Assembly: GCA_051313645.2 (NCBI GenBank) | Contig: JBNRSN020000004.1 | Span: forward strand, 168,330,001-168,394,000 | Origin: Centroscyllium fabricii | Taxonomy: Eukaryota | Direction: 5' to 3' | Length of the DNA stretch: 64,000 bases | In this document: piece after piece, positions 3,055 through 47,289 of the stretch | How positions within the stretch are numbered: the first letter of the stretch is position 1 | Layout: each line of letters starts with the position of its first letter | The notes under the pieces: model-generated | What the model saw: the letters and a program-made list of their open reading frames with translations, nothing else | Database searches by the model: none | What the model was told of the DNA's origin: nothing | Made by a program: the position numbers and the translations under genes

Positions 3055-4345
3055 GGCCCAGAAATTCAGGTCTCCACGGGTTCGTACGCACGGGGTACTC
3101 ACCCGTAGGCCCAACGAAAGTGCCGGTTTCGTGCATGCACTGCGCATGTGCGGGAATCCGGCACTTCCGTTCCCCTGAACGAAGGGGTTCAGAGGTGGAA
3201 CGCATGCACAGCAGCGCGTGCGCATTGCACTTACGTTTTTCTTTACAGCTTTTTCCATGCGGGTACGTCTGCAGATTTTAGAAATGTAAAAAGCAGGCGT
3301 AAGTCCTGCTTTTAACAAGGTAAGTGGTGAATTAATTCAAATTAAAACATTTTTTCCACAGGTTTATTATTTTTAAATACTTTAAAGAAAAGGTAAGTTT
3401 ATTTTTAGCCCCGTTAGAAAATGTAATTTTTTGAAAATTAAATTATTGTTTAAAATACAGGTTGAGCACCGTTAATCGGGCACGGGCGGGACCAGGCCCG
3501 TGCCGGGAAATGGAAAAAACCGGGAGAACGAGTTTGGACACTGCGCATGCGCGCCAGTCAAAATGGCCGCGCGCATGCGCGCAGCATTGCGATTGGCTGG
3601 CGCGCGCATGCGCAGATCGGGCCCGGGTCCGCCGTCCCTCTCCATCGCCTTTGGGGTTGCTGCTGCCGCCGAGCGGGACTCAGGCTGACAGCTGTTGCCT
3701 AGTGACTGTCCGCCTCAGTCACGGGGCTCAGCTGTCGAGAAAATAACGGGCGGCCGTATTGAATTATCTGCGCATGCGCTAACCGTCCGGTGACGCATGC
3801 GCAGATCATTCAAAACACCCGCAGCTGTTTTGAATGATCTGCGCATGCGCTCGGCGCATGCGCAGATCATTCGCTGAAGCCACGATGGGGGCTGCCATTT
3901 TGCGCATGCGCAGTGCAGTCGGGGCAATTTGTGCCGGCAGACTGAAGCTGCCGGCTATTCGGGACACGGATTAACGGTGCTCAACCTGTAGTTATTTCAT
4001 GTAATTTGTAGTTATTTTAAAAATGTGATTTTAAATTTTTTTTTTTAATTATTTGAAGTTTGTGATATTTTAGGGCTTATAGTATTCATAGTTTTGACAG
4101 CACTTCCTGTCAAACTCATGAATGAAGCATTCCCTGCTCTGATTGGCTCTCCATGGCCCACGTGACCCCAGGGGATGCATCGAACTAACTGCGCCCCTGG
4201 GACACGCAAGCACTGCGCGCCGGCAGTTGGAGGAGGCCCAGGAACGGAATTCCATGCAGGCCCACAGCTCAACGGCTGACGCGCAAGGTAAGTGCAGGTT
4301 GGAGGCTTACACCCGCAGGAAGCCTCTGACCCGAATTTCCGGACC
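3055..4345. mobile_element. Non-autonomous PIF/Harbinger-like DNA transposon
   Basis: TIRs GGCCCAGAAATTCAGGTC / GACCCGAATTTCCGGACC; 3-bp TSD ATT. Confidence 0.75.
3458..3988. mobile_element. Tc1/mariner (Tigger-like) MITE with GC-rich cargo, nested in the Harbinger-like element
   Basis: 20-bp TIR CAGGTTGAGCACCGTTAATC; TA on both sides. Confidence 0.9.
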
Positions 4346-17762: not shown

Positions 17763-18689
17763 TTCAATTCAATTCAATTTTATTGTCATTGCACAGTCTA
17801 TAATCACAGTGCAACGAAAAGTGAGCTTGCAAGCTCCCAGGACATGACATAGCAGACATTAAGTTATAAATTATAGAGTTATGGATAAATAATAAATAAA
17901 TAGATAAATGAATAAAGATTGCAAATAGCATTTCAAAAAGAAGATAAGCAAGTGCTGGGGGGGGCAAAAGGGCTGTTAATGTAGGAAGTGTGGCTGGAGG
18001 TGCTGATGGTAGACAGATTTGGTGTTGAGTGATAGAGTTCAACTGGATAACAGCCCTTTAATAGCAGGTAGCTGGGTACCGGTGATGTATTGGGCAGTTT
18101 TGACTACTCTCTGAAAGGCCTTCCTGTCGGAGGTGGAGCAGCTGCCATACCACACCGTAATGCAGTTTGTTAGGATGTTTTCTATTGTGCAGCGGTAGCA
18201 GTTGGAGAGAAGCTGGGATGATAAGTTAACTTTCTTCAGCCTCCGCAGGAGGTATAGGCGCTGCTGAGCTTTCTTCACCAAGGAGGATGAGTTGAGGGAT
18301 CATGAGAAGTCTTTCATAATGTGGATGCCCAGGAACTTGAAGCTGCAGACCCTTTCCACCTCAGCCCCATTGATGTAGATCGGGGTGTGTCTGATGTCTT
18401 TGGACTTCCTGAAGTCTGCAATGAGCTTCTTGGTGTTGAGGGACAGGTTGTTGTCAGCGCTCCACGCCACAAGGTGTTGGACCTCTTCTCTGTAGGCTGA
18501 ATCGTTATTGTTAGTGATCAGTCCTATCACTGTGGTGTCGTCCGCGAACTTGATGATGGTATTGGAGTTGTGGATAGGCACACAATCATGGGTGAAGAGG
18601 GAGTAGAGGACAGGGCTCAACACGCATCCTTGTGGAGCCCCGGTGCTCAGGGTTAAGGTGGTGGAGGTGAGGTTACCTAACCTAAAAGA
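17763..18689 (-). mobile_element. Rex1/Babar-type LINE 3' fragment
   Basis: [23 protein letters not shown]...[12 protein letters not shown]; (TTGAA)n tail; possible TSD TTTCTGCT. Confidence 0.85.
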
Positions 18690-26344: not shown

Positions 26345-26690
26345 GTAAATGTGTTTTTCAACAAACTGAACAACATAGTTGTTAAAAATGTTGGTTTCAT
26401 TTAGAGAGAATTAGTTTAAAAAATAAATCAGGGGGGGGCTGTTACTTGAGACCCAGAGACATGTAGAGGGCCATAGATGTAGGAAAGGTTTTAGGGTTGT
26501 ACGAAGGGTACCACGGGTTTGGGGTCAATCCGGTATTCCCCTCCCTTCTTCCACATGCCAAAATACATTATACACTGTGGTTTTTCATAAGCTGGCAGGA
26601 ACATGGACATTTGATTCACCAAATCCTAAGTTCTTTGCTATCACGCAACTGGTAATGGTGATTTCCTCTCCAAGTTGGTGGCGATTATTA

Positions 26691-27092
26691 GAAAGAAAGA
26701 CTTGCATTTATATAGTGCCTTTCATGACCTCAAGGTGTCCCAAAGCACTTTACAGCCAATTAAGTACTTTTTGAAGTGTAGTTACTGTTGTAATGTAGGA
26801 AACACGGCAGCCAACTTGCGCAGAGCAAGCTCCCACAAACAGCAATGTGATAATGATAGTGATGTTGATCGAGGGATAAATATTGGTCAGGACACCGGGG
26901 ATAACTCCCCTGCTCTTCTTCGGAATAGTGCCATGGAATCTTTTACGTCCACCTGAGAGAACAGATGGGGCCTTGATTTAACGTCTCCTCCGAAAGACAG
27001 CACTTCCTCAGTACAGTACTGGAGTGTCAGCCTAGTCTCTGGAGTTGGACTTGAACCCACAACCTTATGACTCTGAGGCAAGAGTGCTACTC
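26691..27092 (-). mobile_element. Deu-domain SINE
   Basis: Homologous to 98-527 and 41521-41952. Confidence 0.8.
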
Positions 27093-27297
27093 ATGGATTA
27101 GTTGTATTTAGACTTTTTAAACTTTAGTTCTAACTCCTGTTTTTATTCACGTTTATAGAACTATCCCGAACATTTATTTTAGATGATCAGTTTGAAAAGC
27201 CATTGTCAGCATTCATCATTTTACTTTTAGATTAGCTGCACTTGCATAATAATCTTTATTTAATGCCATAATCTATCCAAAGCAGCATAATTCAATA

Positions 27298-27970
27298 CAG
27301 GTTGTGCACCGAAAATCCGTGACCCGAAACGCCGGCAGCTTCAGTCTGCCGGCACAAATTGCCCCGACTGCACTGCGCATGCGCGAGATGGCAGCCGCCA
27401 TCGCGGCTTCGGTGAATGATCTGCGCATGCGCCGCTGAACGGCGAGCGCATGCGCAGATCATTCAAAACGGCTGCCGGGTGTTTTGAATGATCTGCGCAT
27501 GCGTCGCCGGACGGCTAGCGCATGCGCAGATCATTCAAAACGGCCGCCGGGCCTTCCGAGGCGTCAGGGCGAAAATAAAACTGGAAGCGCACAGTTCCCG
27601 GCGAGCAGGCTGTCCCTGTGCGAGAGCCAGGAATGGGAATGTTGAGCGGAGTTCCTTACCCGGCTTTGCTGCTGCTGGAGTCAGTGGATGAGCGGCTGGC
27701 TGAGTGAGTGAACAGCTCCGGCTCGTGTCTCGGCAGTACTAGCATATCCAGTGAGCACTCACTCTAAAAATAGCTCCCCTCCCCCTGCACCAATCCGCAC
27801 ATACACATGGCCCCACTCAGCCCCCTCTTTTGGACTTTTCCTGCATCGTTCGGCGGCCATTTCTAATGTTTTGCATGGTGCGCGCATGCGCACTGACCGA
27901 CTTCATTCTGCCGGTTTTTTCACTTTCCCGGCCTGGTCCCGCCCGTGCCGGATTTCCGGTGCGCAACCTG
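27298..27970. mobile_element. Tigger-like MITE, same family as 3458-3988 (inverted), different interior
   Basis: TIR CAGGTTGTGCACCGAAAATCCG / CGGATTTCCGGTGCGCAACCTG; TA TSD. Confidence 0.88.
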
Positions 27971-28129
27971 TAATAGTTATGGCTAGGGATAAGCAAAATA
28001 CTTGAATTTTACACTGTCCAGTTAGGGCAATGTTATTTCATATTACCCTACTGAAAGATATGAAGTTAACATATTCCCATGCTAAGTTAGTTATTTTCAC
28101 AAAGAATACTAGGTAATTAATTCTACTAT

Positions 28130-28425
28130 ATAGTGGTTAGCACTGTTGCCTCACAGCGCATGGGGCCCAGGTTCAAATCCGGCCTCGGGTGACTATCTGT
28201 GTGGAGTTTGCACATTCTCCCCGTGTCTGCGTGGGTTTCCTCCGGGTGCTCCGGTTTCCTCCCACAGTCCAAAGATGTGCGGGTTAGGTTGATTGTCCAT
28301 GATAAATTGACCCTTAGTGTTAGGGAGATTAAATATGTGGGGTTACGGTGGGATATGTGTCGGTGCAGGCTCGATGGGCTGAAATGGCCTCTATCTGCAC
28401 TGTAGGGATTCTATGATTCTATGTT
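28130..28425 (+). mobile_element. V-SINE
   Basis: Head, V-domain and (ATTCTATG)n tail. Confidence 0.82.
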
Positions 28426-30210
28426 AATATAACATTTAATTCATGACTGTTTATTTTGTGAAATTCAATAAGACACCAATTTTAAAAGCTGGCATCAAAT
28501 GCTATTTTTCCAATTCCGCTACATTAAATGAGTTGGTTTCAGAATAGTTGTCGTTAGTGGAAATACGCAAATGGCTTTAGGTGTTAATTAATTGGGAAAA
28601 AAACAGAATGAGCTTGTATTTTTGATCTTTTAATTACTCTGAGTCCATGTTGGATGCATCCATTTTAAGTTGAGCTGATACTTAACTGTATCCATGTTTA
28701 CTATTTGCTTCTAATACTGTAGAATCCCACCATACTGAAGTAATTCAAACCAAGACCCATTTTCTAGATAAATTTGTTAGTGCTGGTATTTTTTATTTGT
28801 GTTTATTGCTTTTGTTTTTTTTAATGCTGACGTTTTGTCAAACATAATTGCTTACCAAATACTTAAAATTTTCCAGTATTACAATTTAATGATGAAAAAA
28901 ATAACAAAACTTCTGGTAAGGGATTGGTGAAGGGAATGCTGCTATGTGCCTGCTGTGAAGAGATTCGCCTGCAGGGTGCACTAGAGCTTTACATCTGATC
29001 AGATTGGCTTTGCTGGAAAATTTCTGCTCATGGAAGTCACACATCCTACATGGTAAAAATGGAGATTGAAAAACTTTCCATGAACAACTTGACACTGATC
29101 AATGAGTTAGACTGGACATTATCATGAACAGAAGGGGAGTTTCGGTTAGGATTCTTGAAAGCTGTGAGGTTGACCTATTACCTGATCAGTATTGTTGCCG
29201 TTATCCATTCAGCTGGCATTGCTGCATGGTCAGGCTGTGAGGCATTCCTATCTGGGCTTGTACGCTGGCATGCCCAGCTTTATAATGTGACACTTCTTCA
29301 AGAACATATCCAATTAGAGCAGATAAGTTGTTAGAGGGATGAGGATGAGTAATGGGATATGTCTTGGAGCTTTGCTTGATTCTCTTATGTAATTGGAGAG
29401 GAATTTTTCATGGTTTTTCCTAATTGGCTGTAGTCTTTTTCCTTTTTTTTTTGCTTCTCAATGGAGATTGCGTGGTTAATGGGTGGGTAGATGGTGTATA
29501 TGATTGCACTGTATCTGGATAGGATGCACTTGATGGTCCTGATTCTCTCTTTCCTGTCCTTTTAATATACGTTATTCCGTTTCTCCAGAAATCATAAGGT
29601 GGTTATGAATTCTGGACTCTATTTAATGTTTTATTGAGCTCCAGTACTTCTGTGTGTGCTGTTTTCTCTCAATGCTCAGCAAGTACAACACTAAGTACAA
29701 CAGGCACAGTTTCCAATATATAACCGCCCTCATATGTCCAAAATGCCCCTGTGCTTTGCCTGGAGCCCTCCCGCCCTGCTCTCTCCTGGTTCCAGTTTGC
29801 ACTGTGAATTGGACTAGTACCTAGCCCGCCCACACCCTGCCTGCTTTGTTTAAAAATAAGCATAATTGGTCAGGGCTCCAGGGAGGAGCCGAGCTCAAGT
29901 TAAAACTAGGTCAGAGAATGCAGAAGAGGATTCAGAACTGCTGCAAGAAAATGAAAGAATGGCATTTCAATGGGAATTTAAAAAATTACATTTTCTAAGT
30001 GGCCTGAGTTTGTGAGACCCACTCTGGTTCCAGTCTCCTTGCTGGAAGCAGGATTCAGAGCCAGGGTCCACGTCCCACTCAATTATGCACATACAGCTCA
30101 ATATACACACAATCCACTTGGCACTTTTACATTGGCTTTTAGCTGTGCCACTTCTGAATTGCCACTGTGCCTGTTGTGGCGAATTCTAATTAGAAATGTA
30201 GGAACATATA

Positions 30211-30912
30211 GGGGTAAATTTTCCTCAGGCCGTCAGGCGGGCTTTTCGGCAGAGATGGGCGCAAAATACCAAAACCGGCGTCCCGACCCGAATCTTTCCC
30301 GACGGGAATGGTCGTTAGGCTCATTAAGCACCCTTAATTGGCATGTATAATGCCATTTTAAGGGGCCCTTGGTATTTTCAGGTGTTCCCCACCCGAAACC
30401 CGCCAGTCTGAAACCCCGCTGGTGAAATCTGGCGTGGACACAATTGCTTGCTGACTATCAGCTGAAAGTCAAAGGTAGATATTGAATCAGCTGTAGCAGA
30501 AGTCGTCCCTGGGCACCAGGCTGCAGGAGGGCTGACTGTATCCCTAGGGTGTACAAGATCAGTGGGGAAAAAAGCTTTCACAGACTTGCCTTGCAGCTGC
30601 TTTTTAATGTTTGACAGATAGCTCTTCACCAGCTGTCAATGATACGGGTCTGCTGCAGTAGGTCCCAGTGAAATGGACGCTGTCAGTCAAGGGCTGTGGT
30701 TTCACTAGGCTTTGGGGCTCTGCTCTTTGAGCAGCCGGCACCCCGCCGGCTTTCTGACTGAAAACAGTCAAGTGGCAAGGGTTCCAACATGCAGGGAATT
30801 AATTGGCCAATTAAGCCAAAATTGCATGGGGCTCCCAGGCCCTTCAACATTCGTGTCAGAAACCTGACCCGTCCGAAACCCACCAATTCCCCACACATGG
30901 GAAAATTATCAA
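30211..30912. mobile_element. Harbinger-like MITE
   Basis: GGGGTAAATTTTCC ... GGAAAATTATC; shares TAATGCCATTTTAAGGG with 24424-25177. Confidence 0.6.
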
Positions 30913-31546
30913 CAGCAAAATCAGCACGCTAGACAGTAAAATATATGGTGCATGTTGCTGATCTCGCTGTTGCTGGGAAGTCTAACCAATATTACTGCCT
31001 TGAAATGTTATTGTATATGCAGTTAATATTCTTACCAAAAGATGGCCTAATAGTAGTATTTGGCTTACTGGTGCATGCACATTCTTACTTAATCATTGCA
31101 TATTACAACTTCAGGAAAACAGAACATTCTGATTAATGGAATGAAGTAGAAACTTTTCTAAAGAGTTAGCTTTGCTACAAGGGAGGGGTAGGAGAGTCAG
31201 GGTGCTACAAAATAAATGTTTTTCACTTGCCCAGTCAGGCAAGTGGATTTCTAAAACACTTGCCGGAACACAAATTTCACTTGCCCGAAATTTTTAAAGA
31301 AATAAATAAAGATTTTACCTTTTTATTAAAATGCTTTAATATAAAGCCATAGATTATGATTGTGCGTTTAGTTGCATTGGCGGTTTCTGCCCCTCTCTAT
31401 TATCCTCTCCATCCTATTCCACCTTTAAAAATCTTTTCAAAAATCTATTTCCTCAATCATTCACTCCATTTCTTCATTTCGCTCTTCCAAACTTTCTGTG
31501 AAGCCTCCACAGGCCGCGGGCTCCCTCACTCTGTCTCCCCGCCTAC

Positions 31547-31688
31547 CTTTGTCCAGCAGCCGCTCCAGGTCCGTGAAGATGCTGCAAAGGTTGGGCAGGC
31601 TCGACGTCAGCTTCTTGTCATTCATCAGCTGCATCAAATAGTCGGGACTGGGTCTCGGCTTCTCCTTCACTCCCATTTCCACCACCAT
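31547..31688 (-). pseudogene. QKI: Captured QKI (quaking) family coding exon 1 with native donor
   Basis: [47 protein letters not shown]; 142 coding nt then AAG|GTAGGC; no downstream QKI exons seen. Confidence 0.9.
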
Positions 31689-32065
31689 CCTTTTATAGAT
31701 ATTTTCCCCCCTCTGAGGAGTAATTATAAAGATTTTATAATTGATCGAAAGAATAAAGACCGAGTTGGTTTTTTTTCTTCAGAAGCCGCTCCGGTTTTCT
31801 CTCTTCCCCCTCAGCGGGTCGACGGCACCGACCCACTCCACCTAACCTGACTGCTGCCCTGTCCCGATTGTCATGCTGCCTCCTTCAATCACCGCCACGC
31901 CGCCCATCTCTCTCCTCTCTCTTTCCCCCCCCCCCCCCCCCCCATAGCCAATCCTCACCCGCCTCCAGGGCTGGATCCACCCACCCGTTCCCGTCATCAA
32001 CCAATCGATTTGATGCGCCACCTCCTCCAGTCGACCGCCACGGCAAACCGAGACGTAAACACGAT

Positions 32066-33517
32066 CATAGAAACTAGGAGCAGGAGTAGGCCACTCGGCC
32101 CCTCGAGCCTGCTCCGCCATTCAATGCGATCATGGCTGATCATCCAAATTCAGTACCCTGTCCCTGCTTTCTCCCCATACCCCTTGATCCCTTTAGCCTT
32201 GAGAAATATATCCAACTCCTTGAATATATTTAATGAATTGGCCTCCACCGCCCTCTGTGGTAGAGAATTCCACAGGTTCACCACTCTCTGGGTGAAGAAA
32301 TTGCTCCTCATCTCTGTCCTAAATGGCTTACCCCTTATCCTTAGGCTGTGACCCCTGGTTCTGAACTCCCCCACCATAGGGAACATCCTTCCTGCATCTA
32401 GTCTGTCCAGTCCTGTTAGAATTTTATAAGTTTCAATGAGATCCCCTCTCATTCTTCTAAACTCCAGCGAGTATAAGTTTAATCGACCCAATCTCTCCTC
32501 ATATGTCATTCCTGCCATCCCTGATGAATCTTCGCTGAACTCCTTCCATCGCGAGAACATCCTTCCTCAGATAAGGTGACCAAAACTGCACACAATACTC
32601 AAGATGTGGTCTCACCAAGGCCCTGTATAACTGCAGCAAGACATCCTTGTTCCTGTACTCCAACCCTCTCACTACAAAGGCCAACATACCATTTGCCTTC
32701 TTAACCGCCTGCTGCACCTGCATGCTTACCTTCAGCGACTGGTGCACAAGGACACGCAGGTCTCGTTGCACTTCCCCTTCTCCCAATCTATTGCCATTCA
32801 GATAATCAGCCTTCCTGTTTTTGCCACCAAAGTGGATAACCTCACATTTATCCACATTATATTGCATCTGAAACACCCAACCTGTCCAAATCATACTGGA
32901 GTTTCTCGGCATCCTCCTCACAGCACACACGCCCACACAGCTTTGTGTCGTCTGCAAACTTGGAGATCTTACATCTAGTTCCCTTGTCTAGATCATTTAT
33001 ATATGCCATTCAATGAGATCATGGCTGATCATCCAAACCCAGTACCCTGTCCCTGCCTTGTCCCCATATCCCTCTCGAGCCTGCACCGACACACATCCCA
33101 CCCGATCACCGTAACCCCACATATTCAATCCCCCTAACACTAAGGGTCAATTTATCATGGCCAATCAACCTAACCTGCACATCTTTGGACTGTGGGAGGA
33201 AACCGGAGCACCCGGAGGAAACCCACGCAGACACGGGGAGAATGTGCAAACTCCACACAGATAGTACCCGAGGCTGGATTTGAACCCGGGTCTCTAGTGC
33301 TGTAAGGCAACAGTGCTAACCACTATGCCTTCTGAAAGTCCAAATTCACCACATCCACTGGTTCTCCCTTATCTATTTTACCAGTTACATCCTCAAAAAA
33401 TTTCAGTAGATTAGTCAAGCACAATTTACCTTTTGTAAATCCATTTTGACTTTGTCCGATCCGGTCACTATTTTCCAAGTGCTCTGCTATTACATATTTT
33501 ATGATGGACTCTAGCAT
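32066..33517 (-). mobile_element. CR1 LINE fragment inside the Pack element
   Basis: RT peptides CLTNLLKFFEDVT, KANGMLAF, EFRRMRGDLIE; tail at 32066. Confidence 0.9.
33005..33325 (-). mobile_element. V-SINE inside the CR1
   Basis: Reverse complement of 13139-13480; ATGCC on both sides. Confidence 0.85.
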
Positions 33518-34514
33518 GGCACACTCCAATCAACCCCTTCAATACAACTAAACCAGACCTGCAATCAATACGAAACCCCAAATGACACCTAATCATCATT
33601 TTGTATTCTACCACCCAAACCGTAGCCACGTTTAGTACCCTGAAAGCCAACCCCATCAACTCAACCCTGCCCAACTCAAATCTCCGGTCAAAGAACATCT
33701 TTAACCCCATCAACATGTAGCACTGAACTGTGCAAGAATAGTAATGCATTTAACTGAATGTTATACAACTTTTGCTGTACTACTTCAAGATAATAAGCAA
33801 ATTTTGCACAATTCAACAAAAATATTTTTAAGTCCATTAAAATGCCAGTTCATTGTACCCTGTATTAGTGCACGTGTGGTCACAGTAGCAGCAATTTTAC
33901 AGTAACCCGATAATGCCCTGTAACATGGAATAAAATAAAACTAAATATTATTTCGGTTCAAATCATATATTACAATAAGTTTAAAATCACGATTCAATTT
34001 CAGGAGCCCCCAGACTCCTTAATGACATAGGCAGCCGGGTTGAACACACTTGAGAAACCCACCACACTAGACATAAATAAGGCAACACTGTGGCGGTTGT
34101 CCACTGATAAACTAATGCACCTTTGTATAAAGTCAGCATCCACTGCCTTATAACGCAGGTTATCCTATGTCTATGGGAGGGTGGATAAACACTGTAGTGT
34201 TTTACAGATTAAAGCCTGAATTTAAAAGCTGGCGGCTATTCCCCAAGTATAATGTAAAACGCCATTGCACGGGACAGAAAGCTTTGGGGGGCCAGGTGAA
34301 CCGCAGACATGGATGGACTCGGGGCTGTGCTGTGTGTTGGTTGTTCAGTGTCAGGCGGTGCTGTCTACACACCCTCCCGAACCGCAAATACAACTCGGAG
34401 CACCGAAGGGACACCATTGCAAACAGCCCAATCCGGCACTTCAAATAAACCCACGAAATTAGCTCAGAAACGAAATGTGCCACAAATTTCGACGTCGTGG
34501 CTTAATAGCATGGG

Positions 34515-36400
34515 CTAACTTGAAAAGGGGTATCATGAAGGCCAAACGCAACTACTCAATGACGATTGAGGACCATTTTCAAAATAATACAGACCCCCCG
34601 GCGCATGTGGCAAGGCATTCAAACCATCACTGATTATAAGAGCAAGAACACCTGCCCCCCCCCCCCACCAGTGACGCCTCCCTCCCTGACGAGCTTAACA
34701 ACTTCTATGCTCTCTTTGACATGAACAACAGGGAGCCAGCCACCTTAGCCTTGCTACCCCTGGACGATCAGGTGCTCACACTGTCCATCTCTGACGCAAG
34801 AGGTTCTTTACGCAGAGTGAGCACACGTAAGGCTGCCGGCCTAGACGGTATCCCTGGACGAGCTCTCAGGGCATGTGCTGACCAGTTGGCTGAGGTCTTC
34901 ACTGACATCTTCAACTTATCACTGGCTCAGGCAGTGGTCCCCACATGCTTTAAGACCACAACCATCGTTCCGGTGCCAAAGTTGGGATGTGCCTGAATGA
35001 CTACCACCCTATTGCACTCACTCCCATTATAATGAAGTGCTTCGAGAGACTGGTCCTGACACACACAAAAGCCAGCGTGCCCGCCACCCTAGATCAACAC
35101 CAGTTTGCCTACCGCACAAATAGGTCAACTGAAGATGCCATTTCATCTGCTCTTCACTCCACTTTGACCCACTTGGAAGGCAAAGACACCTACGTCAAAA
35201 TGCTGGTCATCGATTAGAGCTCAGCATTCAATACCATCATCCCGACCAAGCTTGCAACCAAACTCCATGCCCTTGGCCTTAACACCTCCCTCTGAAAATG
35301 GACCCTGGACTTCCTGACGAACAGACCCCAGTCTGTTAGGTTATGTAACTTCACCTCCACCACCCTAACCCTGAGCACCGGGGCTCCACAAGGATGCGTG
35401 TTGAGCCCTGTCCTCTACTCCCTCTTCACCCATGATTGTGTGCCTGTCCACGACTCCAATACCATCATCAAGTTCGCGGATGACACCACAGTGGTGGTAG
35501 GACTGATCACCAACAATAACGATTCAGCCTACAGAGAAGAGGTCCAACACCTTGTGGCGTGGAGCGCTGACAACAATCTGTTCCTCAACACCAAGGAGCT
35601 CATTGTAGACTTCAGGAAGTCCAGAGACATCAGACACACCCCGATCTACATCAATGGGGCTGAGGTGGAAAGGGTCTGCAGCTTCAAGTTCCTGGGCGTC
35701 CACATTATGGAAGACTTCTCATGATCCCTCAACTCATCCTCCTTGGTGAAGAAAGCTCAGCAGCGCCTATACCTCCTGCGGAGGCTGAAGAAAGTTAATT
35801 TATCCTCCCAGCTTCTCTCCAACCGCTACTGCTGCACAATAGAAAGCATCCTGACGAACTGCATCACGGTGTGGTATGGCACCTGCTCCACCTCCTACAG
35901 GAAAGCCTTGCAGCGAGTAGTCAAAACTGCCCAATACATCACCGGTACCCAGCTACCTGCTATTCAAGACATCTATGAGAAGCGTTGCCTGTGGAAATCT
36001 CTCAGCATCACCAGGGACCCCAGCCACAGACTGTTTGCCCCCCTGCCATCTAGGAGGTGCTACAGATGCATTCGAGCCCGGACGACCAGGCTCAGGAACA
36101 GCTTCTTCCCTCGGGCTGTTATCCAGCTGAACTCTATCACTCAACACCAAATCTGTCTACCATCGGCACCCCACCTGCACTTTCTGCATTAACAGCCCTT
36201 TTGCCCCCCCAGCACTTGCTCATCTACTCTTTGAAATGCTATTTGCACTCTTTATTCATTTATCTATTTATTTATTATTTATCCATAACTCTGTATAATT
36301 TATAACTTAATGTCTGCTATGTCATGTCCTGGTAGCTTGTGAGCTCACTTTTTGTTGCACTGTGCTTATAGACTGTGCAATGACAATAAAATTGAATTGA
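34515..36400 (+). mobile_element. Rex1/Babar-type LINE (RT region), same family as 17763-18689
   Basis: [49 protein letters not shown]; AATTGAATTGAA tail. Confidence 0.9.
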
Positions 36401-36608
36401 ACAAAATAAAATTAATATTTAGCTCAGATAAGCCACCGGTAAAGTTCAACAAGCGCATAATTGTAACCAAATAAAGCACAATAGGGGTCACTGCCAACCG
36501 TCAGAGAACCGGACCATTTACCTCAGACTCTTAACCCAGATATAAGCATCTCCACAGACATGCACGGAATCAGCTTTGAGAAGATTGCCCTCCCTTTTCC
36601 CCCATCTC

Positions 36609-36731
36609 TCACTGGATAGTTTTCCGCCCTTGTCTCCTTCTGCGCTGTAAAATGAAGTAAGAATTGGGGTTTTCCGTCACCCAGAGCTTGAGAGCATTTT
36701 TCAGCAGCACTTCTTCAGGCTTTAGCCACAT
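36609..36731 (-). pseudogene. TBC1D8: Captured N-terminal coding fragment of TBC1D8 (TBC1D8/8B family); 40-aa ORF, absent from the ORF track
   Basis: Manual translation [40 protein letters not shown]; the first ~35 aa match the TBC1D8 N-terminus. Confidence 0.87.
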
Positions 36732-37911
36732 AATGAAAACCTCACGCGGACATCAGAAATGTATGCAGTTTCTTTCCTTCCTCAGTCAAATGCTAGTCAC
36801 CTAGATTGGGTTTTCTGTCCCGCCATTGCTTATATTGACCAAACACACTTTCTTTCCACCTGTACTAAGCCTTACAGTGCACCTTCCCTGGGGCTCACAA
36901 TCTACGCTCATCCCGTGGCCTTGATCATCGATGTGAAATACATCGGGCAAGTGCGATTTTCATTTGCTTGCCCTTCGGCGCATTTTGCTTGCCCCGGGCA
37001 AGCGGTTTTGTCGCGACCTGGGAGAGTGAAGAAAATGTACTGAGGCGTACTCGAGTAATTAGAATAACACTTATAGGTAAAACACAATCCCTGAATAATA
37101 CATACATTTCTTTGAATCCTGCTGTTTTCGCCTCTGCTGTTTAGTTTTCCTAAGACAGTATCTACTGTGCCTGAGTACCTACCAGCTGCCAGGACTCCAC
37201 AACTCCAACTTTCAACTGCTCACTAGATGATGTGCAAGAGCCTAGGGAGGATTTGGCAGATTTCCTACTCTTCCCCCAGCAATATGGCCAAGATAAAAAC
37301 TGGAGCAAAGTGGGAATTAAACCTGTTCACGCACAATAGATGTCAAGAAAGCAGTGCCCTGAACTATTGGATTGCCTTTCATGGTAGTGTTATGTAACAC
37401 GTTTCCAATAATTTTAAAGGACTTAATTCCTGAAAAATAAATCTTCCTGTTTCAGTTAATTTTGTCAGTTTTCATGAGAACTTTTGAAGATTTCAGAGAT
37501 ATTGGAAATCTCCACACTATTGGTTGATCAGATTGACCCTGACAGTGTACCCGGAGAGAACTATGGTTTTTACCATTTCCCATTGTAGAACGCAATTGGG
37601 CTGGGATATGCAAAACTAGAAAAAGTGACCAATATTATTTAGGCTTACTAAACACTAATGCAAAAGGATTTTGGAAAGTGACTGTTTATGGTTCACTTGG
37701 AGCATCTCTTGTAGTTTGAATAATAAACAATTTGCTCTATTGTTGAGGTGTTATTGGTATGACTCAGATCTCTTTACATTACAAATGAACAGCATTGTAC
37801 TGATACTCATTGGTATGCGTGTGTTTTTTTTGTTAGCTGTGTATATAGAAATGCCCACGAATCTCCAAAAGCAAACTGCTGAGAAGTAAACATCAGTAAT
37901 TCCCTTTTGTT

Positions 37912-38237
37912 TGTTATGGAGTTCACACTCTCTCCTGATAGGACATGCTACAGCTACACTGAGTCCTGGTTAGACCATGATGCAATAAAGACTTACCAAG
38001 CTTTTAGTGAACATAAAGCAAGGCTTTATTCAACTTATAACATAACATAAAGACACAGAGCTAGTTCACAGTCACTAGCCTCCTAGTTCTAGAGTGTCTG
38101 TTTAAACTGGTGCTTAGGCCCCAGTATTTATACTCCCTGGTCAGGTGCCCTCAGCTGGCCGACCAGTAACTGTTCCTAGGTTGTTTGGAAGTCCAACCAA
38201 TAACTCTTCCTAGGTTATTTCAGCACCATTCGAGACT
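37912..38237 (-). mobile_element. Probable partial LTR of the Gypsy element
   Basis: TGTT terminus; AATAAA and TATAAATA on the - strand; adjoins pol remnants. Confidence 0.55.
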
Positions 38238-39097
38238 CGTCAGATACTGACGCAGTCCGTGTCCATATGCAGCAAGACCTGGACAACATTCAGACTTGGG
38301 CTGACAAGTGGCAAGTAACATTCGCACCACACAAGTGCCAGGCAATGACCAGCTCCAACAAGTGAGACTCCAACCATCTCCCCTTGACATTCAATGGCAT
38401 TATCATCGCTGAATCCCCCACTATCAACATCCTGGGGGTTGCCATTGATCGGAAACTGAACTGGACCAGCCATATAAATACTGTGGCTACAAGAGCTGGC
38501 CAGAGGCTGGGAATTCTGCGGCGAGTGTCTCGCCTCCTGACTCCCCAAAGCCTTTCCACCATCTACAAAGCACAAGTCAGGAGTGTGATGGAATACTCTC
38601 CACTTGCCTGGATGAGTGCAGCTCCAACAACACTCAAGAAGCTCGACACCATTCAGGATAAAGCAGGCCGCTTGATTGGCACTCCATCCACCACCTTCAA
38701 CATTCACTCCCTCCACCACCGGCGCACTGTGGCTGCAGTGTGTACCATCTACAAGATGCACTGCAGCAACTCGCCAAAGCTCCTTCCAAACCCGCGACCT
38801 CTACCACTTAGAAGGACAAGGGCAGCAAACGCATGGGAACCGCACCACCTACAAGTTCACCTCCAAGCCACACACCATCCTGACTTGGACCTGTATCGCC
38901 GCTCCTTCACTGTCGCTGGGCCAAAATCCTGGAACTCCCTTCCTAACAACATTGTGGGTGTACCTACACCATATGGACTGCAGCGGTCCAAGAAGGCGGC
39001 TCACCACCATCTTCGAGGGCAATTAGGGATGGGCACTAAATGCAGGCATAGCCAGCCAGCGACGCCCACATCCCATCAATGGATTAAAAAAAAAAAT
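38238..39097 (+). mobile_element. CR1/L2-clade LINE 3' end with poly(A)
   Basis: YKAQVRSVMEYSPLAWMSAAPTTLKKLDTIQ; same family as 52003-54910. Confidence 0.88.
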
Positions 39098-40860
39098 TAG
39101 GGCAAGGGAAGGCAAAGGGAAAGCGCGAATACTCCTCTACCATCGTAAGGAGGTAGGTATTCCGTGTAGAAGAGGGCAATGGCCCTTTAAAGTCTATGCT
39201 AAGTCGCTGCATGGGCTGCATAGCGTGTATGAGTACGCCGTCTGATGGGCAGAAGAATTGTGGTTTCAATTCCGCACAAGTCCTGCAGGAGGAGCAAGCT
39301 TTTCTGACATCTTCCGTGGAGAATGGTAGATTTTTGGATCGCACAAAATGTAGAATGCGAGTTATGCCCGGATGGCATAAGTCCATATGGAGATCCACCA
39401 GGGTGGTTGATGACATTGAAGAGCAGAATGCCTGTGTGAAGGTATCTGGGGCCACATTCTGTTTGCCGGGTCGGTAACGGATAGTATAACCAAAGGCAGC
39501 CAACTCCATTCGCCAAAGTTGAATTTTATTATTTTTGATTTTGGTGTGTTTCCAGTTGTCCAGCATGAAGCCTACGGGAACGCCTTCATGCTGGAGGGTA
39601 AAATGACGCCGAGCAAGAAAATGGCTCCATTGGCGCACAGCTTCGATGATGGCTGTGGCCTCCTTCTCGACAGGGGGATAATGGAGCTCGCTACCCTGCA
39701 AAGTTCTGGTTAGAAATGTCACCTGTCACCCACCTTGATTCAGGGTAGCCAAGATCGCTACCTCCGATGCGTCACACTCCACCACAAAGGGAAGGTTCCC
39801 GTAGATGGAGCGAAGCGTGGCTTTCTCCAGCAACCCTTTGAGGAGGTCAAAGGCTGAAAGAGCCATTGCGTCTAATGGAAATTACTTTGCATGAAGCGGG
39901 CTGTATTTTATCAGAAGTGAGGTATCCACTTTGCGTAATAAACAAACATGCCAAGTGCCCGACAAAGAGCGCCAAGATTTGCAGGAGGAGGAAGCTCCTG
40001 AAGTGGACGAAGTCGCTCTGGGTCTGGTTTAATTACACCATTGCCCACCCAGTAGCCAAGAATATTAATTGATGATACCAATTTCACTGATTTAGAGTCG
40101 TTCAATGTTAAGTGGCGACAACGGAGGACGTCAAAAAAGTGTCGCAGGTTGGCGTCGTGTTCCTTCTGATCATGGCCGGCAATAGTGATATTGTCCAAAT
40201 ACAGAAAAGATCCATCAAGTTCTCTTGCCTGACCAAGCCATCCATGGCTCGTTGAAAGACAGCCACCCCATTGGTGACCCCAAATGGAAGCCGACGAAAC
40301 TGATAGCCGACCATTGGCCTCAAAGGCCGTATACTTCTTGTCTGAATCTTTCAGTGGCACCTGATGGTAAGTGCTTTTTAAGTCGAAAGTTGAAAATACC
40401 TTGTATTTGGCAAGGTTGTTGACCATATCATCTATGCGTGGGAGTGGGTAGGCATCCAGATCAGTATATTGGTTGATAGTTTGTGAGTAGTTGATACATA
40501 GATGTTTCTTATGTGGTTTTAAAGAGTTCTTCACAATGACGACTTGAGCCCGCCAGGGCGACGAACATGATTCAATAATCCCCCCCCCCCCCCCCCAGCT
40601 AAGAGGCGAGAAATTTCTGTCCGAACAAATGCTTGATCATCCTGGCTGAAACGTCGTGATCTGGTGGCGATGGGTTTACAGCGAGGTGAGAGATTGGGAA
40701 ATGAGGGTTTGCCGAGCAAGGCCGCCGAAAGTGCACAAAACGGCACCTTAGAAATGGTAAGCTCAGGCCTCAACCCTCCAAACTCAAAAGTGAGTCTCTT
40801 GTGTTGTTTCTGGAAATCTTGCCCCAGCAACACATCGCTGCATAAATTCTCGAGTATTCC
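39098..40860 (-). mobile_element. Ty3/Gypsy pol remnant (protease end, RT, RNase H, integrase)
   Basis: DAYPLPRIDD, FSTFDLKS, YLDNITI, EKEATAIIEAV, HHCC (LH..LCHPG..C..C), IDFKGPLP; frameshifted. Confidence 0.92.
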
Positions 40861-40861
40861 A

Positions 40862-41312
40862 AGCCGGGTTTATCCTTACACTCTTGTTCAAAAAAGGGTG
40901 TAACGTTTGCAATTCTCCAGTCCTCTGGCACCACCCCTGTATCAAAGGAAGATTCGAAGATTATGGGCAGTGCATCCGCAACTTCCACCTTTACTTCCCT
41001 CAGCATCCTAGGATGCATCCTATCTGGTCCTGCTGATTTATCTACAACCAGCCTTTCTAGTACCTCTATTAATTATTAGCGCATCCAGTACCTCAACTAC
41101 TTCCTCTTTGACTATGACTTTGACTGCATCTGTCTTTACCAAGGAAGAAGATGCAAAGTACTCATTTAGTACCTCTGCCTCCATGAGTAGGTCTACTTTT
41201 TGGTCCCTAATCGGCCCCACCCCTCCTCTTACTACCCATTTACTATTTATATGCCTATAGAAGACTTTTGGATTCCCTTTTATGTTAGCTGCCAGTCTAT
41301 TCTCATACGCTT
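40862..41312 (-). mobile_element. CR1 LINE fragment
   Basis: MHPRMLREV...VPEDWRIANVTP; AEVLNEYFAS. Confidence 0.8.
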
Positions 41313-41520
41313 CCCTTTTGTACAGCTAGGACCATTCCTTACCTCTTGGGGCATTGGCTTCCAGGGTAATCAGGAACTGAGTGGATAAAAGTACGGCTCA
41401 GTGACAAATGTATCTCTCCAGGCTCCATTTCATGAGCCAGGCTAGCTGGTCAGTTGGCATCATCACCCTGGAGTATTCCAGACCTGCCACAAAGGATCGA
41501 TTTTTGGTTTAATTCTTCCA

Positions 41521-41952
41521 GTGTCAGCTGTGGCTCAGTTGGTAACACCCCTGTCTCTGAGTCAGAAGGTTGTGGGTCCAAGTCCCACTCCAGAGACTTG
41601 AGCACAAAAATCTAGGCTGACACTCTAGTACAGTGTTGAGGATGGGGAGTGCTGTCTTTTGGATGAGACTTTAAACCGAGGCCCCGTCTGCCCTCCCAGG
41701 TGGACATAAAAGATCCTATGGCACTTTCGAACAAGAGCATGGGAGTTATCCTCAGTGTCCTCGCCAATATTTATCCCTCAATTAACGTCACTAAAAACAT
41801 TATCTGGTCATTATCACATTGCTGTGGCCAAATTGGCTGCCACGTTTCCTACATTACAACAGTGACTACACTTCAAAAGTACTTAATTGGCTGTTGAGTA
41901 CTTTGGGATGTCCAGTGATTGTGAAAGACACTATATGAATGCAAGTCTTTTT
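41521..41952 (+). mobile_element. Deu-domain SINE
   Basis: Head GTGGCTCAGTTGGTA, Deu core, tail ATGCAAGTCTTT. Confidence 0.82.
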
Positions 41953-43323
41953 ATTGACAGGCATATCATCTTAGAAACAACTTGACTCTAAAGAGATCCC
42001 TCCCACCCTCCTCCTAGTCCAAGTAGGACAGTCACTGGTTGTTCAAACAACTGACTATGCACAGGTTTGAGTCATCAACTAGGTGAACAACAAGCAGCAT
42101 TGTGAGCAGCATAACTCATCATGAAATATGTGAATGCAGATTGTCCTGATCATAGCATAGACACACACTATCCCCATCAAATTATGGTTTCACTACATAG
42201 AAATGCAGAGTTTCTGCTCATCTATTTGCCTCTGGTCTGGTGATCTTCATTGGAGAGGGCCTTCATCATAGTGAAAGATGCTAGTGCTGTACAGTGGAAA
42301 AGTCCTACTTTTGGCATGTAGGACTATAAAAAAGTTGATTTAAGTATTCCAGTTCTACCCAAATTACCTTTTTAGAGAGATAAAAACAAACTTAACTCAT
42401 TTAATGGGAAGAAAGATTTTGCAGAGTCTATAATGAGAGTAAATTGTGCATGGTCAATGAAAGACATTTGCTAGATGAGTATGCCTACGTCAGGTTTAAG
42501 GCAGGCCAGGTGCAAAGTAAGGATATTTCTCTGCCCCAACAATGTGCAGTACAGTACCTGAATTTTCAATTTGAGAATAGCACCCCCTACTGATCAAGTG
42601 TAAATTATTTATTTCAATCTCCTTATGACTGCTTTGAGTGAGAATGAAAGTTTGTGATGAATCATGGTTGAGCAATTTTATGCTGTGGATTCCTGGGAAG
42701 CAGGTTTGTGATGGCCCAAGCTGATTTGTACAGTAGTTGGCCAGGAGGAAACTATTATCTCATTTGTGTGTGGTGTAGCGAAACTTAGACAGTATGTGAA
42801 CCTATGGTGTTGGCTAATCTCCTTGTTCGTTCAATAACTTGGGCATGTACTCGAGGGCAATATTGATCATGAGCTTTGGCTGGGGAGAGAAAAGTTTTGG
42901 GAAGCTAGTTAATATAGGAAGCATGAACACTGGGGTGAATATTACTGACTTACCTGTGTGGATTTATGAGTGTGAACCCTGTGTAAATAAACACATGACA
43001 ACATGGCCCTCAGTGAAGAGTTACCTGGTTACTCTGATATAAGGTAAATGTATCTTGATTTAATGAAGAAATAATGCATACAAAGTTTTAGCTTTCTGTT
43101 CATTTTGTACAAAAGCATGCAAAGTTTAAAATGCTGTCAACTATCTGACTACCATTTGTTCTTGGGTATGTTTTGGGTGAAAACCGTGAGATTAGTTTCT
43201 AACACTTGCATTTGGGGTTGGCTTACATTTTGTTACCTTTGCTAGGAAATGAAAGTCAAACCACTTTAATATTATAAGGTATTTCACATTTCCAGTTCAC
43301 AGATGTGTGTTTATATATTCCAG

Positions 43324-44243: not shown

Positions 44244-45539
44244 TATCTCCAAGTTTGCAGATGATAGACACAAAGCTGGGTGGGCGTGTGCTGTGAGGAG
44301 GATGCTGAGAAACTCCAGTATGATTTGGACAGGTTGGGTGATATGGCAGATGCACTAATGTGGATAAATGTGTGGTTATCCACTTCGGTGGCAAAAACAG
44401 GAAGGCAGATTATTATCTGAACGCTAATAGATTGGGAGAAGGGGAAGTGCAAGGAGACCTGGGTGTCCTTGTGCACCAGTCGCTGAAGGTAAGCATGCAG
44501 GTGCAGCAGGCGGTTAAGAAGGCAAATGGTATGTTGGCCTTCATAGCGAGAGGATTCGAGTACAGGAGCAAGAATGTCTTGCTGCAGCTGTACAGGGCCT
44601 TGGTTAAGAAGGCAAATGGTATGTTGGCCTTCATAGTGAGAGGATTCGAGTACAGGAGCAAGGATGTCTTGCTGCAGCTGTACAGGGCCTTGGTGAGACC
44701 ACACCTTGAGTATTGTGTGCCGTTTTGGTTGCCTTATGTGAGGAAGGATGTTCTTGCCATGGAGGGAGTGCAGTGAAGATTCACCAGGCTGATACCTGGG
44801 ATGGCAGGATTGACGTATGAGGAGAGATTAGGTCGATTAGGCTTATATTCGCTAGAGTTTAGAAGAATGAGGGGGGATCTCATTGAAACTTCTAAAATTC
44901 TAACAGGACTAGACAGACTAGATACAGGAAGGATGTCCCCAATGGGCGGTCCAGGACCAGGGGTCACAGTCTAAGGATAAGGGGTAAGCCATTTAGGACT
45001 GAGATGAGGAGGAATTTCTTTACCCAAAGAGTGGTGAACCAGTGGAATTCTCTACCACAAAAGGCAGTTGAAACCAATTCATTAAATATATTCAAGAAGG
45101 AGTTAGATATATTTCTTAAGGCTAAAGGGAGATGGGGAGAAAGCAGGGACAGGGTACTGAATTTGGATGATCAGCCATGATCTCATTAAATGGCGGAACA
45201 GGCTTGAGGGGCCAAATGACCTACTCCTGCTCCTATCTTCTATGTTTCTGTGACCCCTTTCCAAATGGATAGTAATGATGGACCCCCCCTCAACAATCTA
45301 AATTATAATACTACTGAGGACTTCTACAAACTTTAGAACACATCTAGGATTTGTTTTTCCACAAACCTGTAAACTGTATTTTCACTTGTATACTATTGTT
45401 TATTCGCTCTGTACTTGCATTCTGTAATTGCAGTGTGGTGGCTAAGACTCATTCTGTGTTCAGCTACATTTATTCAGCACTCAGACAGGACCAGAAAACA
45501 CATCTAGACACAGTAAACAATGCAGTCATTAGTGTTAAA

Positions 45540-45659: not shown

Positions 45660-47289
45660 TCATTAGTGTTAAAGTATCCCTTTACTCAAGTTTTTCTGAG
45701 TTGATACACACATGCTTATAAATGTGCCCATGGTGTTGGTCTACTGACACTGTTATAAGTGTTGATTATACACACACAACGTGCATATGCTTAATACACT
45801 CAATGTGAGGAAAACATCCCGTATTATATTTTACGCATTCACTGAAACCTTCATTATCTGCTCTTAACTACATAATGGCGGAATGTTGAGAGTCCCCATA
45901 TTGCTGTCTTACACATACGGTACATTAAACCCTTCTGCAGGAAAATAAAGCCAAGTACCATGCAAATTGTAAAAACATCATATAATTTTGATGTCTTGTG
46001 TAAGGTTTTGTCATGAAAATTTTGGCAATCATAAAGGCAGATAATAGGTTACACTCTACACCCATATTATATAAGGTATGCAATCAAATTAAGTTCAACA
46101 GTTTACTTTAAAATGTGCGATCAGGTAGCCTGCGCTCTATCACTATTTGTCATGACACAAGACTCACTGTCACAAGAAAAAAATGGAACAAACCACCCCT
46201 CTGATTTGTATATATTGTACGCGCATATACTATATAGACCGGAGGTAGGCTTGGTGCAAGGTGGGAGCGGAGTGCAGCCACCACATGTCCCGTAAGGCCG
46301 GCCCTGCACGGTTCTCATTATTTCTCGGACCCCTAGAAAGTCTGTACGAACCCCCGTTTGAGAACCACTGGTCTAGGTAATCGCTGGTACTTGGTATCAA
46401 GACACTAACAGTCTGGTTAAAGTAAAAATCAGCAGTAATTTAGCAACGTAGGTTGTTGCCTTGCTTGGATCTTCGTAATTGCTGACACCAACTCAATAAC
46501 TTGTACCGTATTTGAGTTCAAATTATTGGGAGTCTGAGGCTTCCCAATGTGGATAGAAACTCCAGCAATACACTTGCCCTGTAAAAGAGACACATGGTAG
46601 AAAATCTGTGGATTAGAATTGGTTTTGGAAAGCATGGAGGAGATCAAAGTCCACCCGCCAGCTCATCTGAATTACTCAGTTAGGGGAGGGCAAGTGTGAA
46701 GGAAGAAACCACTTTATACAGGGTTTGACTGGTGCACTTGCTGTTCCACTGCAATGTGCAGTACAATAAAGCATAAGCTATAGAAGTTTACAGCACAGTA
46801 GGAGGCTGTTCAGCTGACCATCCCTGTGCTGGCTTCTTGCTAGGATATACAAAACTAATCACACTACCTTGCCCTCTCCCCATAACCCTGCATCTTCCTC
46901 AGCTTCAAATATTTATTCATTTTCCCTTAAAAGATGCACTGATTCTCTGCTGCAAAGCATTACATGCTCTAGCACTTATGTGTGAAGAAATGGAAGCATG
47001 ACATTGGTCGCTGTTCACTATAGTACCAGAAGCTGACTCTGAAAACAGAATAAAGTGGCACCCATCACCTTTGCGTGTGTGATTCAAGGATGTAGCATGT
47101 TGAGTTGCCAGTGATAAACTACTTGAGTCACTGCCACAAATTAGGATGATGCCTTGTAGCACAGTCCAGCTGAGTGTTCTATCCAGTCTATTTGTTTTCT
47201 TCTCCACAGTTAATACATAAATACTTTTGAATGGGATGCAGTACAGAGCTGAGATGTTAAACTACTTTAATTCCCTTAACTAACGTGTA

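What the first reader, a model, noticed from the sequence alone, without database searches (positions are those of the whole stretch)
36609..36780. Hidden TBC1D8 start exon fragment below the ORF-track cut-off
Seen: - strand ATG at 36731 gives [35 protein letters not shown]. Established: TBC1D8 (a Rab-GAP) begins [36 protein letters not shown] second unrelated first coding exon inside the same TIR pair as QKI is the strongest evidence for multi-gene capture with a 5' bias.
Basis: partly seen in the sequence, partly recalled or inferred. Interest (0 to 1): 0.8.

Follow-up and report, generated by a model that had tools for sequence, protein, structure and literature searches.

The report
Transposon carrying two genes' first exons
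In a shark or ray genome, a DNA transposon lodged in an intron holds dead copies of the first coding exons of two unrelated genes, TBC1D8 and QKI, a kind of two-gene cargo familiar from plant transposons and bat rolling-circle elements.

Summary
Confirmed and extended. The minus-strand peptide at 36731 is elasmobranch TBC1D8 (33 of 35 residues identical). A quaking-A (QKI) first coding exon with its donor lies 4.9 kb downstream on the same strand. No other exon of either gene is in the window. Both sit in a 5.8-kb element (31198-37020) with 15-bp inverted ends (12/15), a 7-bp target duplication and clustered subterminal repeats, antisense inside an intron of an intact MIOS gene; two retroelements are nested between them. 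In 5 of 5 testable same-species pairs the genes lie on different chromosomes. Best reading: a non-autonomous TIR transposon that copied two genomic 5' gene ends (a two-donor Pack-TIR), now decaying. Capture order is unresolved (p 0.23-0.35); 5' bias rests on two cases. Copy number, empty site, parent DNA and junctions could not be checked: no shark DNA collection was available.

The parts
26345..43323 (+). Host intron of MIOS (GATOR2 subunit); the element lies inside it, cargo antisense to MIOS
   Evidence: tblastn of a named shark MIOS maps 11 exon blocks covering residues 1-877; GT donor and AG acceptor read
31191..31197 (.). Left copy of the 7-bp target-site duplication
   Evidence: exact match to 37021-37027
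31198..31212 (+). Left terminal inverted repeat, 15 bp
   Evidence: 12 of 15 match to the right end; only these two sites match the end pattern in the window
31213..31290 (.). Left subterminal region with repeats of the CTTGCCC family in both orientations (inner limit approximate)
31291..31546 (-). Splice donor (GT at 31546-31545) and probable start of QKI intron 1
   Evidence: donor read; intron origin of the rest is inferred
31547..31688 (-). QKI / quaking-A first coding exon, 142 nt, frame open, 8-9 amino-acid changes in 47
   Evidence: PDB quaking hits E 3e-17; elasmobranch quaking-A 81-83%; Pfam STAR_dimer
31689..32058 (-). GC- and CpG-rich leader, probable QKI 5' UTR/promoter
   Evidence: GC 0.55, CpG o/e 0.98 against 0.43 and 0.40 for the window; no copy elsewhere in the window; origin inferred
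32059..33470 (-). Nested dispersed repeats: LINE 3' part plus a SINE-like repeat (CR1-group label is recalled; no Pfam hit)
   Evidence: 87-93% identical to copies elsewhere in the window; 0 Pfam families for its two frames; outer limit approximate
33471..34490 (.). Unassigned 1-kb stretch; may be continued TBC1D8 intron 1, QKI upstream DNA or a third donor; probably holds or borders the donor junction
   Evidence: unique within the window; no Pfam or Rfam match; one frame searched, only repeat-type weak hits
34491..36401 (+). Nested, 5'-truncated non-LTR retrotransposon (Rex1-type label is recalled)
   Evidence: Pfam RVT_1 and ALKBH8_N; 93-95% identical to a copy at 17768-18689; 10-bp direct repeat about 20 bp outside each end; 5' limit approximate
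36402..36612 (-). Splice donor (GT at 36612-36611) and probable start of TBC1D8 intron 1
   Evidence: intron origin of the rest is inferred
36613..36731 (-). TBC1D8 first coding exon, complete, 119 nt, with an 8-nt frameshifting deletion at about 36629 and changes K21N, S22P and at the last exon base
36732..36930 (-). About 200 bp upstream of the TBC1D8 ATG, probable 5' UTR/proximal promoter
   Evidence: position and uniqueness in the window; origin inferred; no TATA or GC box found
36931..37005 (.). Right subterminal region with four CTTGCCC-family repeats
37006..37020 (-). Right terminal inverted repeat
37021..37027 (.). Right copy of the 7-bp target-site duplication

Best explanation
A non-autonomous cut-and-paste transposon (short TIRs starting CAGG, subterminal repeats; hAT- or P-like) had its interior replaced by genomic DNA copied from the 5' ends of two unlinked genes, TBC1D8 and quaking-A, each as leader + first coding exon + donor + start of intron 1, head to tail on one strand. 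Most likely route: two successive template-switch/gap-repair events inside the element, with mobilisation by a transposase supplied in trans, ending in an antisense insertion in a MIOS intron. Two retroelements sit between the cargo pieces, at least one inserted later. The cargo is now decaying without selection and makes no functional protein. Shown: exon identities, completeness, donors, frameshift, absence of other exons, ends, duplication, host intron. Inferred: parents on other chromosomes in this genome, the copying mechanism, transposition after loading, neutrality. Confidence in the structure (two captured first exons in one TIR element) is about 0.9; the figure given is for the whole route.
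For: TBC1D8 94% and quaking-A 81-83%; both exons end in a GT donor at the codon where orthologous isoforms diverge or skip, so DNA and not mRNA was copied; no further exon of either gene at E<0.1 in the window with 3 TBC1D8 and 2 QKI queries; TIR + 7-bp duplication + subterminal cluster, P 5e-9; no second pair of ends inside; genes on different-length chromosomes in 5 of 5 same-species pairs; frameshift and changes at conserved residues, each explicable by one base change against the closest ortholog, 3 of 8 QKI changes of CpG-decay type; in the animal survey multicopy Pack-TIRs were always far from their parents while single-copy ones were mostly near (PMC8277862).
Against: TIR + duplication alone is within chance for a window scan. 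The duplication is 7 bp, not the usual 8 of hAT. No second copy, empty site, parent DNA or transposase was seen. The donor junction was not located and may coincide with the nested LINE. Most animal Pack-TIRs are single-copy and filled in place without transposition, so loading in situ at the MIOS site is not excluded. Synonymous divergence could not be measured, so neutrality rests on protein-level changes.
Confidence: 0.6

Rival explanations
1. Two single-donor elements of the same family (one with TBC1D8, one with QKI) were fused by recombination, for example through the LINE at 32059-33470, giving a hybrid with one end from each.
For: The LINE lies exactly between the QKI leader and the unassigned stretch and has no flanking direct repeat of 7 bp or more; the two subterminal regions share motifs but align poorly; the LINE's divergence from its relatives (about 10% pairwise) is of the same order as the cargo's.
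Against: A perfect 7-bp duplication flanks the whole unit, so the hybrid would have had to transpose afterwards; LINE insertions of this kind often lack clear duplications (own knowledge); asymmetric subterminal regions are usual.
Confidence: 0.15
2. End-bypass or alternative transposition: copies of the element had inserted at the TBC1D8 promoter and in QKI intron 1, and flanking gene DNA was carried off with one end from each. The 5' content then reflects insertion preference for open promoters, not a capture bias.
For: Each end abuts its cargo closely (289 bp from the right end to the ATG, 348 bp from the left end to the QKI donor). Tan et al. note that their pipeline misses this route. Neighbouring Pack elements can mobilise as one in plants (PMC8903248).
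Against: Needs the two donors on one molecule or an extra recombination step, yet they lie on different chromosomes in related species; no internal ends remain.
Confidence: 0.12
3. The inverted ends are incidental; the exons arrived by another route (Helitron cargo, templated insertion at a break, or small segmental duplication).
For: Chance TIR-plus-duplication pairs occur about once per window; bat Helitrons carry such first-exon cargo sequentially (PMC4224331).
Against: Subterminal motif cluster at both ends (P 5e-9) and tight bracketing of both exons (0.0003 expected); the other 3 of 4 candidate pairs lack such a cluster.
Confidence: 0.08
4. Assembly chimera that pasted pieces of the live TBC1D8 and QKI loci into the MIOS intron.
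For: Repeat-rich interval; no reads were available to check.
Against: Both exons differ from all listed orthologs at conserved residues and one has a frameshift; the unit has matched ends and a flanking duplication; MIOS exons on both sides are collinear.
Confidence: 0.03

Closest known systems
Animal Pack-TIRs (Tan et al. 2021, PMC8277862; seen: text parts 1-2 of 10, passages, section 14, supplementary file 8)
   Same: Non-TE host DNA between TIR ends with a target duplication; hAT the commonest carrier (208 of 370); a frog hAT element carrying a 5' UTR on three chromosomes; cargo copied as DNA.
   Different: Their pipeline required one parent covering 80-120% of an interior under 5 kb, so a two-donor, nested, 5.8-kb element could not be counted; median cargo 224 bp; most are near the parent. 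The only cartilaginous fish among the 100 genomes was the elephant shark, with 0 cases.
Plant Pack-MULEs and other Pack-TYPE elements (PMC8903248 and PMC5861414; seen: passages)
   Same: Fragments from more than one locus in one non-autonomous element; preference for GC-rich gene parts; Pack-hAT exists in maize.
   Different: Plant genomes; thousands of elements in many families, often multicopy. Here one element, copy number unknown, short TIRs and 7-bp duplication unlike MULE (8-11 bp).
Bat Helitrons (Thomas et al. 2014, PMC4224331; seen: passages)
   Same: Vertebrate case of sequential capture with excess of promoter + 5' UTR + first exon + partial first intron, the same cargo anatomy as here.
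   Different: Rolling-circle elements without TIRs or target duplications; 5' excess shown there on 54 genes, here on two.

Membership tests
TBC1D8 (versus TBC1D8B/9/9B) | Highest similarity to TBC1D8 orthologs and their diagnostic residues | tested here: met
   2-4 differences in 39 to 10 elasmobranch TBC1D8-type proteins, 6-7 to two bony-fish TBC1D8, 7-9 to four bony-fish/coelacanth 8B; full-length tree puts the chondrichthyan proteins with bony-fish TBC1D8, 100/100. No chondrichthyan 8B or any TBC1D9 was among the 120 listed hits, so those were not compared directly.
Functional TBC1D8 gene | Open exon 1 and downstream GRAM/TBC exons | tested here: not met
   8-nt frameshift; no other exon in the window
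Processed (retro) pseudogene | Exon 1 joined to exon 2, no intron, poly(A) | tested here: not met
   Both exons end in GT donors and no exon-2 sequence follows
Pack-TIR / Pack-TYPE element | Inverted terminal repeats at both ends | tested here: met
   15 bp, 12 of 15, with shared subterminal repeats
Pack-TIR / Pack-TYPE element | Target-site duplication | tested here: met
   7 bp exact
Pack-TIR / Pack-TYPE element | Interior holds host-gene DNA and no transposase | tested here: met
   Two exons; no transposase domain in the 16 element frames of 17 proteins scanned; short or decayed remnants could be missed
Pack-TIR / Pack-TYPE element | Intact parent copy at another locus, not flanked by the same ends | tested here: inconclusive
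Pack-TIR / Pack-TYPE element | Ends belong to a repeated transposon family; empty site or further copies | not testable with these tools
hAT superfamily | Short TIRs of 10-25 bp | tested here: met
   15 bp against the range in PMC3942097
hAT superfamily | 8-bp target duplication | tested here: not met
   7 bp exact; 8 bp only with a one-base loss. Repbase lists some hAT families with 7-bp duplications (PMC4455052), so hAT is not excluded but not filed
hAT superfamily | Matching autonomous hAT transposase | not testable with these tools
   None in the element; partner unknown
P superfamily | 7- or 8-bp target duplication | tested here: met
   7 bp; Galileo gives 7 or 8 bp (PMC4168063)
P superfamily | THAP-domain transposase partner | not testable with these tools
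   None in the element; partner unknown
Helitron | No TIRs and no target duplication | tested here: not met
   TIRs and a 7-bp duplication are present; feature list from own knowledge

The most novel reading that the evidence does not exclude
Sharks or rays harbour a multicopy TIR transposon family that behaves like plant Pack-MULEs: it repeatedly harvests promoter-plus-first-exon modules from unlinked genes, stacks them and spreads them, so that 5'-biased multi-gene capture by cut-and-paste elements is a vertebrate process too, and this element is one member of an amplified two-gene subfamily.
Probability: 0.3. Interest if true: 0.75.

Novelty: new variant of a known kind. Interest (0 to 1): 0.55.

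Why it matters
Gene capture by cut-and-paste transposons is documented in animals only as single-donor, mostly short and local copies, and the main survey could not have seen a two-donor element and sampled no shark or ray. A TIR element with two unlinked first-exon modules shows that plant-style stacked capture occurs in a vertebrate lineage and gives a ready probe (the ends) to ask genome-wide whether 5' ends are favoured and whether such elements spread promoters and donors. This copy itself looks dead, so the immediate biological effect is probably small; it can also mislead gene annotation.

Tried and rejected
Ordering the captures by divergence: 3 changes in about 92 non-synonymous sites (TBC1D8) against 8-9 in about 112 (QKI), Fisher p 0.35 and 0.23; not resolved, and confounded because 3 of 8 QKI changes are CpG-decay type and the closest ortholog differs by lineage. 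TIR + duplication as stand-alone proof: rejected, chance level about 1 per window; the end-pattern search alone is also within chance (20 of 100 shuffles reach 2 matches). Third captured gene or RNA: 0 Rfam matches in the window; 0 Pfam families in 6 frames of the unassigned and terminal regions; one 99-aa frame (34205-34501, minus) searched against 1.84 billion representatives gave 3 weak hits, all to one 25-27-residue stretch repeated in long unnamed proteins, taken as repeat-type matches and not examined; the other frames of that stretch were not searched there. Motif copies at 46571-46868 do not mark a related element: no end pattern there. Naming the transposon family from the literature failed. 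Narrowing the host to shark or ray failed: 6-10 differences in 432 MIOS residues to six elasmobranchs. A look-up of cluster members, meant to add species to the chromosome comparison, could not be made, so that comparison rests on 5 pairs. No annotated protein carrying the copy's own substitutions appeared (best identities 94% and 83% among the 120 listed hits of each search; proteins under 71 and 84 aa were not searched).

Full report
Setting. The window holds an elasmobranch MIOS gene on the plus strand: the first large exon hits Pfam MIOS_WD40 and shark and ray MIOS at 98-99%; tblastn with a named shark MIOS maps 11 exon blocks covering residues 1-877 in order. The first exon differs at 6-10 of 432 residues from six elasmobranchs, 15 from the chimaera and 39 from the coelacanth. 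The finding lies in the intron 26345-43323.

The observation. The 40-aa frame finds 952 proteins at E<=0.001 among 994 candidates, headed by elasmobranch TBC1D8 at 89-94%. Against named proteins the copy has 2-4 differences in 39 comparable residues to 10 elasmobranch TBC1D8-type proteins, 7 to the chimaera, 6-7 to two bony-fish TBC1D8 and 7-9 to four 8B proteins. A tree of 16 named full-length proteins groups the chondrichthyan sequences with bony-fish TBC1D8 against 8B at 100/100. Chondrichthyan 8B and TBC1D9 were not among the 120 listed hits and were not compared.

It is a whole exon. Orthologs have three more residues after residue 34 and then GGKLS. In the window codon 34 is followed by one base and then five codons for GGKLS in a shifted frame, one further base, and GTGAG. 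That the parent exon ends here is supported by fetched proteins that diverge or skip at exactly this codon: a ray isoform, a bat isoform and two sturgeon models. Residue 22 is serine in 10 of 10 elasmobranch proteins and proline here; the last exon base should start a glycine codon (10 of 11 proteins) and is A. With the frameshift, the copy is dead as TBC1D8.

The QKI partner. 31688-31547 encodes 47 residues matching quaking in the PDB (E 3e-17), Pfam STAR_dimer and elasmobranch quaking-A at 81-83% (524 hits among 529 candidates); it is 142 nt and ends in a GT donor. Each of its 8 differences from the skate protein needs one base change, 3 of them of CpG-decay type (parent codons inferred, not seen). 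Its leader is GC- and CpG-rich. With three TBC1D8 and two QKI full-length queries, tblastn finds only these first exons in the window; every other match has E>=0.14. Donors present and exon 2 absent mean that DNA, not mRNA, was copied.

The container. The ends are 31198-31212 and 37006-37020, 12 of 15 matching, flanked by an exact 7-bp direct repeat. I tested how much this proves. Scanning the window for any such arrangement gives 4 pairs, and 20 simulated windows give a mean of 1.1, so the pattern alone is weak. But 6 of the 12 window copies of one 7-mer (CTTGCCC, either strand) lie in the terminal 100 bp of the two ends, P 5e-9 after correcting for all 7-mers, while the other three pairs show nothing below 0.13; and a chance pair falling within 500 bp outside both exons is expected 0.0003 times. 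No further ends lie inside. The element is 5,823 bp, of which about 3,300 are two nested repeats with 87-95% identical copies elsewhere in the window. The reverse-transcriptase LINE (RVT_1 and ALKBH8_N) has a 10-bp direct repeat about 20 bp outside each end (chance 82 of 20,000), suggesting that the DNA on its two sides was once contiguous. The names CR1-group and Rex1-type are recalled, not tested. No transposase domain was found in 16 element frames. Superfamily is open: TIR length fits hAT but the usual 8-bp duplication does not (PMC3942097, passages); 7-bp hAT families exist in Repbase (PMC4455052, passages) and P-superfamily Galileo makes 7-8 bp (PMC4168063, passages).

Where the parents are. 

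Order and bias. Protein-level divergence is 3 of about 92 non-synonymous sites for TBC1D8 and 8-9 of about 112 for QKI, Fisher p 0.23-0.35. QKI-first is the direction of the trend but is not shown. Both genes have many coding exons (own knowledge), so two first exons out of two is suggestive, but it is two cases noticed after the fact, non-coding cargo cannot be recognised here, and an excess could come from insertion preference or retention rather than capture.

Mechanism. Best supported: a non-autonomous TIR element took up two genomic 5' ends by successive template-switch or gap-repair events, was moved by a transposase in trans, and landed antisense in the MIOS intron, where its donors cannot be used by MIOS transcripts (inference); retroelements nested and the cargo decayed. 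Tan et al. found multicopy Pack-TIRs always far from their parents and single-copy ones mostly near, which leans towards transposition after loading, since both donors are unlinked; loading in place is not excluded. Rivals: fusion of two single-donor elements at the nested LINE (0.15), end-bypass from insertions at both promoters (0.12), incidental ends (0.08), misassembly (0.03).

Comparison with what is known. It works like a Pack-TYPE element. Animal Pack-TIRs are known (370 in 100 genomes; PMC8277862, text parts 1-2, passages, section 14, supplementary file 8), but the pipeline demanded one parent covering 80-120% of an interior under 5 kb and included one cartilaginous fish, the elephant shark, with 0 cases. 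Multi-locus cargo is known in plants (PMC8903248, passages; GC preference in PMC5861414, passages), and sequential capture with a 5' excess is known in bat Helitrons (PMC4224331, passages). Searches of the held library (top 10-20 listings seen) showed no report of a two-donor TIR element in a vertebrate or of this TBC1D8/QKI element; subscription journals and repeat databases were not searched. Membership tests met: TIRs, duplication, host cargo without transposase. Untested: family, copy number, empty site, parent flanks.

Verdict. Real, correctly identified, and cleaner than first described: two complete first coding exons with donors in one TIR element. A new variant of a known kind; interest 0.55, rising to about 0.75 if the ends define a multicopy family with a general first-exon excess.

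Noticed in passing
window 27296-27972: A separate small element with 24-bp inverted arms (92%) and internal palindromic 72-bp repeats; related sequence at 3740-3997. Looks like a MITE.
   Followed up: no
window 39084-40869 (minus): Broken ORFs that read like the polymerase and integrase of an LTR retrotransposon (label recalled, not scanned), in the same MIOS intron but outside the element.
   Followed up: no
window 34459-34468 and 36419-36428: 10-bp direct repeat about 20 bp outside both ends of the nested LINE; possible target duplication implying that 33471-34468 continues TBC1D8 intron 1.
   Followed up: partly
window 33471-34490: Unassigned 1-kb stretch whose GC rises from 0.36 to 0.48 towards the LINE; a third donor is not excluded.
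   Followed up: partly
P0001: An 81-aa whale shark protein labelled TBC1D8B-like has TBC1D8-type residues and stops after two exons' worth of sequence; probably a split or mislabelled model, possibly another partial copy.
   Followed up: no
window 31548-31688: The QKI copy has skate-like residues at positions 7 and 14 (8 differences from skate, 9 from sharks), a possible clue to host lineage or to which paralog was copied.
   Followed up: partly
window 44512-44694: Near-perfect 90-bp tandem duplication inside a LINE fragment.
   Followed up: no
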